This document shows, one piece after another, positions 3,101-4,457 of a stretch of 56,081 nucleotides of DNA; within the stretch, counting starts at the first letter, position 1; each line of letters begins with the position of its first letter. The translations under genes and the position numbers were made by a program. The DNA comes from Diploschistes diacapsis. Its lineage: Eukaryota. The stretch lies in NCBI GenBank assembly GCA_023645945.1, contig JALAIB010000005.1, forward strand, positions 1-56,081, read 5' to 3'. A model generated the notes under the pieces. It made no database searches and had not been told where the DNA came from. It saw nothing but the letters and a program-made list of their open reading frames with translations.

Positions 3101-4457
3101 TCCTTTTGTAAACAGGTATTTATTAGCTGAATATAAAAAATAATATATTATTACTGGTAATGATACAGTCCACAATAAATATTTATTTATGCATTTCCAC
3201 TATGTTTTAAGTATGGGAGCTGTATTTGCGTTATATAGTGCATGATATTTCTGAGTACCAAAAATATTAGGGTTAAACTACAATCAGTTTTTTAGTAAAA
3301 TTCATTTCTGAAGCTTGTTTATAGGTGTTAACTTAACATTTTTTCCTCAACACTTCTTAGGACTACAGGGTATGCCTAGAAGAATTAGTGATTATCCTGA
3401 TGCTTTTGCCGGTTGAAATATGATTAGTAGTATAGGTTCTCTTGTTAGTGTAGTAGCTACAGTATTATTTTTACAAGTTGTATATGCACAACTGGTTGAA
3501 GGTAAATCTACATCGAGATACCCATGAATTATACCAGAGTTTAATACAGATAGTTTAAGATCGTTATCTGGGAGAGCATACACTTCACTAGAATGAGCCC
3601 TTAACAGTCCACCAAAAGCTCATGCCTTTATAAGCTTACCGTTACAAAGTAACCTTAAAGGCTTTATGTATAAAGTTTACTTTAATATTTTTACACCTAA
3701 AAACTTAGGTACTATTATAGTAGCTACATTTATTTGTATAATGGTTAGGTATATTACTAAACAATTTGACACTCCGTTTATAGAAAATGATATGCTTTAT
3801 TATACATGTAGTGCAGTTTGTATATTTATAAGAGTATTAATACGTTCTATATTTGATAGTGCAGAATACATGGGTTACATACCTAATAATTTTGGAGGTA
3901 TAACAAATAAAATAGGAGCGATTATTAATTATTTAAACAATAAGTTTAAAGTATTATCACACTTTTTATCATTAGATGAAAAATTAACTATGGGTGGAGA
4001 GGAATTTAACAAGAAACCAATGCAACATTATATGGATAGAGGAGATGGTAATACAGGTAATTGAAACAATACCGGTGAGTCTTCTATGAGTTCAGGACAA
4101 AGTTTAAGCCCTGAGACTAAACAAAAAATGATAGAGGAATATGTTACACATGAAATGAAGAAAGCAGAATTTCCCCAATATTACGGTTATCACCAACCCC
4201 TTCTACCTGCTAACACACCCACTGAAGATATCTACAGAGAACATATAAGACAACTTAATATTGAGCAACTAGATAAAACTATAAGAAGAGATGAAGCGTT
4301 AGCCAGAATAGATCCTAATGCCGATAAAAACGATTTTACTAAAAGTTTTGCTATTGCCCAGGCCAATGTACTTGACAAAGAAATGGCTAAGACGAGAGAA
4401 CATATAGATTTAATAGAAAGCGAAATAAGAAAAATAGAAAGCGAAAAAAAAAAATAA
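142..4457 (+). CDS. cox1: Cytochrome c oxidase subunit 1, 3' part; exons 142-430, 2052-2069, 3192-4457 (canonical end LPLQS at 3650, frame stays open to 4457)
   Basis: Motifs [58 protein letters not shown]|...G| group I splice boundaries; TGA read as Trp. Confidence 0.95.
431..1216 (+). CDS. Double-motif LAGLIDADG protein in frame with the upstream cox1 exon; both catalytic acidic residues substituted
   Basis: Open frame with TGA=Trp; motifs read VGLMDGYGS and SGFIEAQGC. Confidence 0.85.
1482..2027 (+). CDS. Intron-borne orphan membrane protein (two hydrophobic segments plus charged helical tail), not a homing endonuclease
   Basis: About 180 open codons downstream of the intron core; no LAGLIDADG or GIY-YIG motif; start codon uncertain (TTG at 1515). 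Confidence 0.6.
   Translation, partial: RINNINIHNISLYNNICILNYLIFTYFIIFFGIFLLLDKKILGNSSYVYKNVLQSSLVPKTSLNFYILFLMLYLLYCILFSQELHAMQPDVDDIKSTIEFYQNEVVSISSVMSEQGLNVDNSMLTPEQQAIKAEYTEALKDSREALSSNIGKLKEAKVVDISEVLGKRGAESDYSSTPVKK
2070..3143 (+). CDS. LAGLIDADG homing endonuclease, in frame with cox1 exon
   Basis: FAGVIDGDG and FAGLVDTDG motifs; single frame with TGA=Trp. Confidence 0.9.
2070..3191 (+). mobile_element. cox1 group I intron (after YVVA)
   Basis: Interrupts YVVA|HFHY; IB-type elements TATATGCTGGAAA, AATCAGCAG, TCAGAGACTGCAC, GATACAGTCC. Confidence 0.9.

What the first reader, a model, noticed from the sequence alone, without database searches (positions are those of the whole stretch)
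3651..4457. Cox1 C-terminal extension sharing a conserved module with the Nad5 extension: candidate family of passenger proteins fused to respiratory genes
Seen: after the canonical Cox1 end (LPLQS, 3650) the frame stays open for 268 more codons. Its first half aligns by eye with the Nad5 extension. Helix 1 ends IMVRY vs TMIKF, helix 2 reads RVLIRSIFD vs RLFLWGLIE, followed by KLTMG (3981) vs KATMG (17819) and KKPMQHYMD (4011) vs KKGMTLNMD (17891). After the MD the two tails are unrelated; here a G/N/S-rich linker precedes a charged coiled-coil-like domain. Inference: a constant membrane-anchor or processing module with a swappable C-terminal payload, expressed by hitch-hiking on essential genes. 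This resembles polymorphic toxins or plant CMS ORFs, and I know of no functional description.
Basis: partly seen in the sequence, partly recalled or inferred. Interest (0 to 1): 0.85.

Follow-up and report, generated by a model that had tools for sequence, protein, structure and literature searches.

The report
Accessory ORFs fused to cox1, nad5
In this lichen-type fungal mitochondrial genome, cox1 and nad5 run without a stop codon into conserved extra coding sequence for membrane-anchored proteins; such stop-less genes are already reported in lichen fungi, and the proposed module shared by the two extensions is not established.

Summary
Under code 4 the cox1 frame runs 268 codons past its canonical end (3650), and nad5 runs about 300 codons past its end. 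Both stretches have no in-frame stop, against 24-27 stops in the other + frames, and 0 of 20000 shuffles are stop-free. Two related database proteins per gene keep each fusion. In three of four comparisons the membrane half is far better conserved than the tail. Linkers differ only by in-frame repeat changes. These are maintained coding sequences, not artefacts.

The "shared module" is not established. The Smith-Waterman score beats shuffles (0-12 of 1500) and is a reciprocal best hit in the window. But HMMER does not see it, and hhalign gives 12% probability. The by-eye motifs are common in shuffles. Identity is not enriched at the positions conserved between the Cox1 extension and its one distant homologue. 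Tails are orthologous in relatives, so no payload swapping is seen.

Stop-less cox1/nad5 (Ramalina, 2026) and a cob-cox2 fusion (Umbilicaria, 2020) are published, with the mechanism unresolved. This window also has cob-cox2 in one frame.

Best reading: accessory membrane proteins translated by read-through from the host gene, with their later fate unknown. RNA-level separation is the main rival. I rate this a new variant of a known kind, of moderate interest.

The parts
3189..3650 (+). cox1 last exon, canonical part (P0001 residues 1-154), ending ...SLPLQS
   Evidence: Pfam COX1 E 1.6e-25. Solved fungal Cox1 chains end at or one residue after S154.
3651..4037 (+). Cox1 extension, conserved membrane half (ext aa 1-129). 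Contains hydrophobic helices at about 3699-3761 and 3795-3863, an amphipathic helix, KLTMG (3981-3995) and KKPMQHYMD (4011-4037). In-frame ATG at 3666.
   Evidence: Hydropathy. AF2 secondary structure H16-38, H48-73, H84-113, low confidence. 98.4% / 94.6% identical in P0003 / P0004. P0008 matches ext aa 38-93, E 1.4e-6. Motif coordinates.
4038..4106 (+). G/N/S-rich low-complexity linker. Holds one copy of the 18-aa unit [18 protein letters not shown] and the only Trp codon of the extension (TGA).
   Evidence: P0003 has three copies of the unit, an in-frame +36 aa. AF2 disordered. TGA count.
4107..4454 (+). Cox1 extension tail: charged and helical (predicted helical hairpin / coiled-coil-like). 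A 21-nt tandem repeat lies at 4412-4456.
   Evidence: AF2 helices 191-218 and 229-267, pLDDT 69-81 per 10-residue block. 81.9% / 92.2% identity in P0003 / P0004. TRF. X4 has an in-frame 21-nt insertion after 4411. No Pfam, NCBIfam or PDB match.
4455..4457 (+). TAA, the first in-frame stop after cox1, directly behind a run of A
15812..17470 (+). nad5 downstream exon, canonical part (P0002 residues 1-553)
   Evidence: Pfam Proton_antipo_M and NADH5_C. Alignment to 7zm7_5 up to P0002 residue 542, chain residue 664 of 679.
17471..17917 (+). Nad5 extension, conserved membrane half (ext aa 1-149). Contains hydrophobic helices at about 17552-17608 and 17654-17710, an amphipathic helix, KATMG (17819-17833) and KKGMTLNMD (17891-17917).
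   Evidence: Hydropathy. AF2 secondary structure, very low confidence. 96.6% identical in both P0005 and P0006. Coordinates.
17918..18370 (+). Nad5 extension linker and tail (ext aa 150-300), with a conserved block ...[14 protein letters not shown]...GLPDTGL...
   Evidence: 79.5% / 66.7% identity in P0005 / P0006. P0006 has an NNPTASGS-type repeat expansion in the linker. No Pfam, NCBIfam or PDB match.
18371..18373 (+). First in-frame stop after nad5, directly followed by an atp9 pseudogene

Best explanation
Two lineage-specific accessory genes are welded in frame onto the 3' ends of cox1 and nad5 in a Pezizomycotina mitochondrial genome of the lichen/rock habitat type. Each encodes three parts. 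(i) A two-helix membrane hairpin plus an amphipathic helix; for Cox1 its conservation is not distinguishable from the host gene's, for Nad5 it is somewhat lower. (ii) A low-complexity linker that expands and contracts by in-frame repeats. (iii) A faster-evolving soluble tail, helical and charged behind Cox1 and of unknown fold behind Nad5.

No stop separates them from the host gene. The most likely mode of expression is therefore that ribosomes which initiated on cox1 or nad5 simply read on, so that the accessory protein needs no leader or activator of its own. The chain is then either cut from the respiratory subunit or stays attached.

Shown: the frames are open, conserved and kept in relatives, and the membrane half is under much stronger constraint than the tail. 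Inferred: translation by read-through. Inferred: a role of the hairpin in returning the chain to the side of the membrane where the host protein ends, so that host biogenesis is not disturbed. Inferred: proteolytic separation.
For: Open frames: 0 stops in frame against 24-27 in the other + frames, and 0/20000 shuffles stop-free.

Frame-specific coding signal. Codon adaptation to the core genes, frame 0 against +1/+2: Cox1 module 0.67 against 0.52/0.50; Cox1 tail 0.62 against 0.34/0.40; Nad5 tail 0.55 against 0.34/0.40. GC3 is below GC1 in all extension parts, whereas intergenic controls are flat.

All 5 Trp codons in the extensions are TGA, so the frames are open only under the mitochondrial code.

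Fusions kept in relatives: P0003 and P0004 (Cox1), P0005 and P0006 (Nad5). P0003 and P0006 are both listed with a longest contig of 83,710 bases, probably the same contig.

Conservation gradient, core / module / tail. Cox1: 99.4 / 98.4 / 81.9% (P0003). Nad5: 99.0 / 96.6 / 66.7% (P0006) and 99.5 / 96.6 / 79.5% (P0005). Module against tail by Fisher test: p 8e-6, 4e-12 and 4e-6.

Length changes are all in frame: 18-aa unit x3 in P0003, an 8-aa unit expansion in P0006, and a 21-nt insertion in run X4.

The Cox1 module has a more distant homologue, P0008: 43% identity over 56 aa, E 1.4e-6 against 1.84 billion proteins.

Same genome: cob runs in frame, with no stop and no ATG, into cox2. All three unknown ORFs that directly abut a core gene (behind cox1, nad5 and nad6) are in the host's frame.

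Published parallel: in Umbilicaria pustulata a transcript carries cob-cox2 as one uninterrupted frame (PMC7186782, passage).
Against: No RNA or protein data bear directly on this genome. One 193-nt contig of an RNA library (X17) lies on 4040-4232 with 3 differences, but the tool warns that DNA can be present in such libraries.

[quoted passage not shown] As quoted in PMC13706191, RNA processing removes the encoded stops of nad4 and nad5 in budding yeasts. Both favour separation at the RNA level.

The Cox1 extension has a conserved ATG at its sixth codon (3666) that could serve as its own start.

In P0004 the module and tail do not differ in conservation (p 0.61). The Nad5 module's codon signal is weak: 0.52 against 0.44/0.50.

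Only two close relatives per gene were available, with no DNA, so dN/dS could not be computed.
Confidence: 0.5

Rival explanations
1. Separation at the RNA level. The primary transcript is cut at or near the canonical ends, so Cox1 and Nad5 are made from stop-less mRNAs and released by a rescue factor. The downstream ORFs are then separate genes, translated from their own starts (ATG 3666 for the Cox1 extension). Being in frame is a by-product of losing the stop.
For: Three distinct transcripts cover the stop-less nad3 ORF of Umbilicaria pustulata, and no editing creates a stop there (PMC7186782, passage). Yeast nad4/nad5 stops are removed by processing, as quoted in PMC13706191. A conserved ATG lies six codons into the Cox1 extension. 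Behind nad6 a stop is present, and the next ORF starts with ATG-GAT at the equivalent place of a 69-nt repeat.
Against: The Nad5 extension has no ATG before its codon 45, which lies inside the first hydrophobic helix; non-ATG starts cannot be excluded. The first codons behind both junctions are invariant in all three sequences, though most of each module is invariant too. All 3 of 3 abutting accessory ORFs are in the host's frame, where about 1 in 27 is expected if frame did not matter, and this count is made after the fact. No shared sequence motif of 9 or more bases occurs at the cox1 and nad5 junctions that could mark a processing site.
Confidence: 0.25
2. The two membrane halves are homologous copies of one 'adaptor/processing' module, which defines a family of passenger proteins with exchangeable C-terminal payloads.
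For: Reciprocal best non-self hits among 443 ORFs. Smith-Waterman score 64, reached by 0-12 of 1500 shuffles and by 0 and 1 of 571 natural windows. Same predicted order of elements in both: short helix, TM, roughly 9-residue loop with D-x-P-x-I-x-x-D, long TM, amphipathic helix, Met-rich motif ending in MD, repeat linker, tail.
Against: HMMER finds nothing. hhalign probability is 12%. Natural controls score up to 56-64. There is no enrichment of identity at family-invariant positions: 5/21 against 8/38. P0008 aligns in another register. The short motifs are common in shuffles. The AF2 models behind the secondary structure have pLDDT 51.5 and 39.4. Tails are orthologous in relatives, with no exchange seen. 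Two TM helices are what any add-on needs to keep the host's topology, so convergence is plausible.
Confidence: 0.25
3. Relics of mobile endonuclease ORFs (mORFs) or of a terminal intron ORF that inserted at the 3' end of the host genes.
For: In Glomus atp6 a mORF insert lacks a stop and is in phase with the host gene (PMC3630166, passage). The window is rich in LAGLIDADG and GIY-YIG ORFs. There is a weak NUMOD3-like stretch in the Cox1 linker (E 0.09, 13.2 bits against a cutoff of 20.4).
Against: No endonuclease domain in either extension. There is no second copy of the cox1 C-terminus in the window (best non-self E 1.6). For nad5 the best non-self hit is E 0.002 on the minus strand inside nad6, which I judge compositional because composition correction and SEG filtering were switched off in that run. 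The host proteins are already complete before the extensions, so no downstream exon is missing. Rfam gives no intron hit, but it also missed every ORF-bearing intron of this window, so that result is uninformative.
Confidence: 0.05
4. Assembly or sequencing artefact: a lost T that would make AGT-TAA at 3648-3653. Alternatively, non-coding DNA that happens to be open.
For: AGTAAC is one base from a stop.
Against: The same junction is read in two independent database proteins. No indel is listed there in runs X3 and X4, which come from two other studies. 0/20000 shuffles are stop-free. The extensions show conservation and in-frame indels.
Confidence: 0.02

Closest known systems
Stop-less core genes of lichen-forming fungi: Ramalina cox1, nad3, nad4, nad5 (PMC13706191, 2026) and Umbilicaria pustulata nad3 and two others (PMC7186782, 2020)
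   Same: No TAA/TAG at the conserved C-terminal position. Stop-free runs of 134 to >300 codons behind cox1 and >100 behind nad5. States reproduced in independent assemblies. cob lacks a stop after ENSLIEL(A). Lichen habitat.
   Different: Those papers treat the state as 'stop-codon absence' and analyse selection only on the truncated core. In the parts I read (abstract passages and sections 3.3 and 4.2; passages of the Umbilicaria paper), the extensions are not described as conserved proteins with a membrane half, repeat linker and tail. Supplementary tables were not seen.
Continuous cox1/cox2 frame of Acanthamoeba and Dictyostelium, also reported for Pleosporales (as described in PMC5626475, passages), and the cob-cox2 fusion of Umbilicaria (PMC7186782)
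   Same: One uninterrupted mitochondrial reading frame that is expected to give two products. The same window carries cob-cox2 in one frame.
   Different: There the downstream part is a core respiratory subunit. Here it is an orphan protein with no family assignment.
mORF-generated gene hybrids: Glomus atp6/atp9/cox2/nad3 and Allomyces atp6 (PMC3630166, passages)
   Same: A foreign ORF in phase with the host gene's 3' end and expressed with it.
   Different: mORFs encode LAGLIDADG or GIY-YIG endonucleases and carry a duplicate of the host C-terminus. Neither feature is present here.
Group I intron ORFs translated in frame with the upstream exon and then cleaved
   Same: An accessory protein without its own initiation signals rides on the host gene's translation.
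   Different: These ORFs sit behind a complete host protein, not inside an intron. No ribozyme core was identified.
Plant CMS chimeric ORFs and bacterial polymorphic toxins
   Same: A hydrophobic N-terminal part followed by a variable C-terminal part, with expression borrowed from a resident gene.
   Different: The host genes are intact rather than fragmentary. There is no toxin domain, no immunity-like partner and no exchange of tails among the relatives seen.

Membership tests
Stop-less core genes of Lecanoromycete mitogenomes | No TAA/TAG at the conserved C-terminal position of the core protein | tested here: met
   Cox1 S154 aligns to the last or next-to-last residue of solved fungal Cox1 chains, and the next codon is AAC. 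Nad5 reads on past the end inferred from 7zm7_5.
Stop-less core genes of Lecanoromycete mitogenomes | Extended stop-free interval (no stop within 50 codons; the criterion of PMC13706191) | tested here: met
   268 codons (cox1) and about 300 codons (nad5).
Stop-less core genes of Lecanoromycete mitogenomes | State reproducible in independent data | tested here: met
   P0003-P0006. Runs X3 and X4 from other studies.
Stop-less core genes of Lecanoromycete mitogenomes | Host is a lichen-forming ascomycete | tested here: inconclusive
   The rps3 ORF lying next to rnl and the one-strand core-gene layout fit Pezizomycotina (the taxonomic rule is recalled). Holders of the DNA are rock, lichen and glacier-forefield metagenomes. 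No named genome was available.
mORF gene hybrids | Encodes a LAGLIDADG or GIY-YIG endonuclease | tested here: not met
   No such Pfam domain in either extension. NUMOD3 only at E 0.09, below its cutoff.
mORF gene hybrids | Duplicate of the host gene's C-terminus downstream of the insert | tested here: not met
   tblastn of the last 80 (Cox1) and 100 (Nad5) residues against the window gave only self hits plus noise.
mORF gene hybrids | Insert in phase with the host gene, without a stop | tested here: met
Mitochondrial polyprotein (cox1/2 type) | One ORF and one transcript giving two separate polypeptides | not testable with these tools
   Needs RNA ends and proteomics. The only RNA-library contig is 193 nt, on 4040-4232.
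Mitochondrial polyprotein (cox1/2 type) | The downstream part is a recognised mitochondrial protein | tested here: not met
   No Pfam, NCBIfam or PDB match for either extension. The feature is met for cob-cox2 elsewhere in the window.
   Smith-Waterman score against shuffles p about 0.001-0.008. HMMER negative, hhalign 12%, no enrichment at invariant positions.
   In 2 of 2 relatives per gene the tail is the orthologue. The sample is very small.
Polymorphic toxins / CMS ORFs | Toxin domain with a cognate immunity gene, or a chimera of core-gene fragments | tested here: not met
   No domain found. The host genes are full length.

The most novel reading that the evidence does not exclude
Lichen-fungus mitochondria carry a so far undescribed class of membrane-anchored accessory proteins that have given up their own expression signals. 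They are made as C-terminal parts of polyproteins with Cox1, Nad5 and, for Cox2, cytochrome b. A conserved two-helix hairpin acts as the adaptor that keeps host topology and presents a cleavage site near the conserved ...M-D motif. This would be a polyprotein strategy of gene expression in fungal mitochondria. It would also answer the open question of how these fungi cope with stop-less respiratory genes.
Probability: 0.2. Interest if true: 0.8.

Novelty: new variant of a known kind. Interest (0 to 1): 0.5.

Why it matters
Two papers (2020, 2026) leave open how lichen fungi terminate translation of respiratory genes that lack stop codons. This window shows that what follows cox1 and nad5 is not junk. 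It is protein-coding sequence with a strongly constrained membrane hairpin and an evolving tail, kept in frame in relatives. That changes the question from "how is termination achieved" to [quoted passage not shown]. It also gives concrete targets for RNA-end mapping and proteomics: the junction peptides and the conserved M-D site. If the tails are functional they could be lineage-specific accessory subunits or assembly factors of complexes I and IV.

Tried and rejected
1. Wider homologue searches.
- The Nad5 extension alone in the 165-525 aa range gave none of 1833 candidates.
- The representative library returned 3 hits. I reject two (P0007, P0009) as repeat-driven, with 13 and 5 short stretches in 1152-1196-aa repetitive proteins. 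Fused forms are probably hidden behind ordinary Cox1/Nad5 cluster representatives, since the query's own relatives were not returned.
- JGI metagenome scans and IMG/VR scans found no relative.
- Cluster membership could not be queried because the database was off.
- No genome is held for the window.

That step was stopped, so no language-model or structure look-alikes were obtained.

3. AlphaFold2 models were too poor for fold search (mean pLDDT 51.5 and 39.4), and no fold search was run.

4. PDB sequence search, NCBIfam and Pfam gave nothing significant.

5. dN/dS could not be computed, because no DNA of relatives could be fetched. Run X2 covered only the cox1 core and is another organism.

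6. The X17 RNA-library cover of the extension is a single low-depth contig, and there is no cover over most of 3669-4004. I draw no conclusion from the gaps.

7. Terminal-intron idea. Rfam found no intron anywhere in the window, including known ORF-bearing introns, so the search is uninformative. The 204-nt element shared downstream of both extensions does not fold better than shuffles (z -0.6).

8. No shared DNA motif was found at the junctions.

9. Paper searches found no paper describing the domain structure of such extensions. This holds only for the library searched, and one search failed on syntax.

10. Earlier notes of this scan describe similar cox1 extensions in other lichen-type genomes. 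No sequence look-alike of this extension was found among them.
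Full report
WHAT THE WINDOW IS

The 56,081 bases are an AT-rich (71% A+T) fungal mitochondrial genome read with code 4. All core genes and all 23 tRNAs found by ARAGORN lie on the + strand. Both rRNAs are present. A VAR1/rps3-type ORF (48403-49653) lies directly behind the rnl match. LAGLIDADG and GIY-YIG intron ORFs and split plasmid-type dpo and rpo genes are also present. 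This layout fits Pezizomycotina; that taxonomic rule is recalled, not tested. Public runs that hold the stretch are labelled rock, lichen and glacier-forefield metagenomes.

THE OBSERVATION

The last cox1 exon ORF (3189-4457, 422 aa) carries the Cox1 C-terminal part and then 268 more codons.

The nad5 ORF (15812-18373, 853 aa) continues about 300 codons past the end inferred from the closest solved fungal Nad5. That chain, 7zm7_5, aligns to its residue 664 of 679 at P0002 residue 542.

ARE THE EXTENSIONS REAL CODING SEQUENCE? YES.

- Each has 0 in-frame stops, against 24-27 in the other two + frames. None of 20000 shuffles of either is stop-free.
- Codon adaptation to the core genes is higher in frame 0 than in the shifted frames, and GC3 is below GC1. 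Intergenic controls are flat. The signal is weak only for the Nad5 membrane half.
- All five Trp codons are TGA.
- Two database proteins per gene keep the fusions. P0004 (93%) and P0003 (81%) match the Cox1 extension, 2 of 322 candidates. P0005 (88%) and P0006 (76%) match the Nad5 extension, 2 of 3224 candidates.
- P0003 and P0006 are both listed with a longest contig of 83,710 bases, so one relative probably has both extensions.
- The junction AGTAAC is read identically in P0003 and P0004.
- DNA contigs of runs X3 and X4, from other studies, cover all 30 bins of 3189-4600 with 2 and 7 differences and no listed change at 3648-3653. The listed pieces fall short of the tool's 31-letter bridging rule at the junction.

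ANATOMY AND CONSTRAINT

Both extensions have the same coarse build:
- two hydrophobic helices joined by a short loop;
- an amphipathic helix;
- a short Met-rich stretch ending in M-D;
- a low-complexity linker;
- a tail.

Identity to the relatives falls from core to module to tail.
- Cox1: 99.4 / 98.4 / 81.9% (P0003) and 96.8 / 94.6 / 92.2% (P0004).
- Nad5: 99.5 / 96.6 / 79.5% (P0005) and 99.0 / 96.6 / 66.7% (P0006).

Module against tail differs with p 8e-6, 4e-6 and 4e-12 in three comparisons, and not in P0004 (p 0.61).

The linkers change only by in-frame repeats. The 18-aa unit is present once here and three times in P0003. An 8-aa unit is expanded in P0006. X4 has a 21-nt insertion in the terminal 21-nt tandem repeat.

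The Cox1 tail is predicted as two long helices (pLDDT 69-81 per 10-residue block), but both models are poor overall (51.5 and 39.4).

No Pfam, NCBIfam or PDB relative exists for either extension.

One more distant homologue of the Cox1 membrane half was found. P0008 is a 66-aa fragment, 43% identical over ext residues 38-93, with E 1.4e-6 in 1.84 billion proteins.

IS THERE A SHARED MODULE? NOT ESTABLISHED.

For:
- BLASTP E 0.002 for the pair.
- Smith-Waterman score 64, reached by 0, 1, 4 and 12 of 1500 shuffles as the shuffle window shrinks from global to 6 aa.
- The score is reached by 0 and 1 of 571 natural windows of this genome's ORFs.
- The two are reciprocal best non-self hits.

Against:
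- In the search against all 443 ORFs the hits have E 3.2 and 0.18, and sit within 1-1.5 bits of unrelated ORFs. phmmer is not significant.
- hhalign gives 12% probability.
- A profile including P0008 does not list the nad5 ORF among hits printed up to E 6.2.
- P0008 aligns to the Nad5 extension in another register.
- Identity at positions invariant in the Cox1 family is 5/21, against 8/38 at variable positions.
- The motifs picked by eye are common in shuffles: 278/400, 240/400, and both collinear in 72/400.

A hairpin of two helices is what any add-on needs to bring the chain back to the side where the host protein ends, so convergence is a fair alternative. I put genuine homology at about one in four.

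CONTEXT IN THE SAME GENOME

- cob (ending ...ENSLIEL) runs in frame into cox2, with no stop and no ATG before the conserved Cox2 N-terminus.
- nad6 ends with TAG at 34267-34269 and is followed in the same frame by a 425-codon unknown ORF. A 69-nt direct repeat puts that TAG at the place where the second copy has the ORF's ATG-GAT.
- So every unknown ORF that abuts a core gene is in the host's frame.
- There is no endonuclease domain and no duplicated host C-terminus, which are the hallmarks of mORF hybrids (PMC3630166 passages).

WHAT IS KNOWN

Stop-less cox1, nad3, nad4 and nad5 are reported for Ramalina. Stop-free runs reach 134 to >300 codons behind cox1 and >100 behind nad5, and cob has no stop after ENSLIELA. 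The authors state that the mechanism is unknown (PMC13706191; passages and sections 3.3 and 4.2; supplements not seen).

For Umbilicaria pustulata, a cob-cox2 fusion with an uninterrupted frame in a transcript is reported, together with three genes that have no stop. The nad3 ORF there is covered by three transcripts, and no editing was seen (PMC7186782, passages).

Continuous cox1/cox2 frames are discussed in PMC5626475 (passages). A survey of lichen mitogenomes (PMC6467859, passages) mentions only endonuclease ORFs fused to introns.

Six library searches listed no paper that describes the extensions as conserved proteins.

Earlier notes of this scan, which are unchecked AI notes, report similar cox1 extensions in Cladonia- and Ramalina-like genomes. 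No sequence look-alike of this one was indexed.

HOW IT MOST LIKELY WORKS

Shown: maintained coding sequence in the host's frame, with a strongly constrained membrane half.

Inferred (confidence about 0.5): ribosomes that start on cox1 or nad5 read on, so the accessory proteins need no leader of their own. The hairpin preserves host topology. The product is then cut or stays attached.

Main rival (about 0.25): the RNA is cut at the canonical end and the downstream ORF is translated separately. The Umbilicaria nad3 transcripts and the yeast precedent quoted in the Ramalina paper speak for this. The missing early ATG in the Nad5 extension and the consistent in-frame state speak against it.

VERDICT

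This is a real feature. It is a conserved-protein variant of a phenomenon already in print. The "constant module with swappable payload" part is unproven.

Noticed in passing
window 41669-43552 (junction near 42349): The cob last exon (...ENSLIEL) continues in frame into cox2 exon 1 and its LAGLIDADG intron ORF, with no stop and no ATG before the conserved Cox2 N-terminus. The same fusion is published for Umbilicaria pustulata (PMC7186782).
   Followed up: partly
window 33571-35547: nad6 ends with TAG (34267-34269) and is followed in the same frame by a 425-codon orphan ORF (one TM, Arg/Leu-rich helices, no Pfam or NCBIfam hit). A 69-nt direct repeat (34248-34316 / 34317-34385, 88%) places the TAG where the second copy has the ORF's ATG-GAT. 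As in the Cox1 and Nad5 extensions, 'M-D' precedes a repeat-rich stretch.
   Followed up: partly
window 6093-6317; 18392-18581; 6559-6579: An intact atp9 (74 codons) lies at 6093-6317. A frameshifted atp9 pseudogene starts within about 20 nt of the stop of the nad5 extension. A third copy of the atp9 start is fused to unrelated sequence at 6559.
   Followed up: partly
window 4809-5012 and 18984-19187: A 204-nt element, 93% identical overall and identical over about 130 nt, lies downstream of both extensions. It has no ORF, no Rfam hit, and a fold no better than shuffles (z -0.6). The whole spacer 4458-6600 is a mosaic of duplicated tRNA, atp9 and other fragments.
   Followed up: partly
window 6675-9962 (-) and 27250-28878 (-): Plasmid-type DNA polymerase (DNA_pol_B_2) and RNA polymerase genes, each split into two ORFs, on the strand opposite to all core genes. 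They are presumably integrated linear-plasmid remnants.
   Followed up: no
window 55943-56081: The window ends in a (GGTACA)n hexanucleotide array of at least 23 units, inside what reads as cox1 exon/intron sequence. This is possibly where the circular assembly was opened, or an assembly limit.
   Followed up: no
window 5378-5588 vs 25305-25498; 5148-5201 vs 50506-50559 (inverted): Duplicated tRNA-containing segments: a second trnR-like copy at 25361-25432, and an inverted tRNA fragment at 5148-5201.
   Followed up: no
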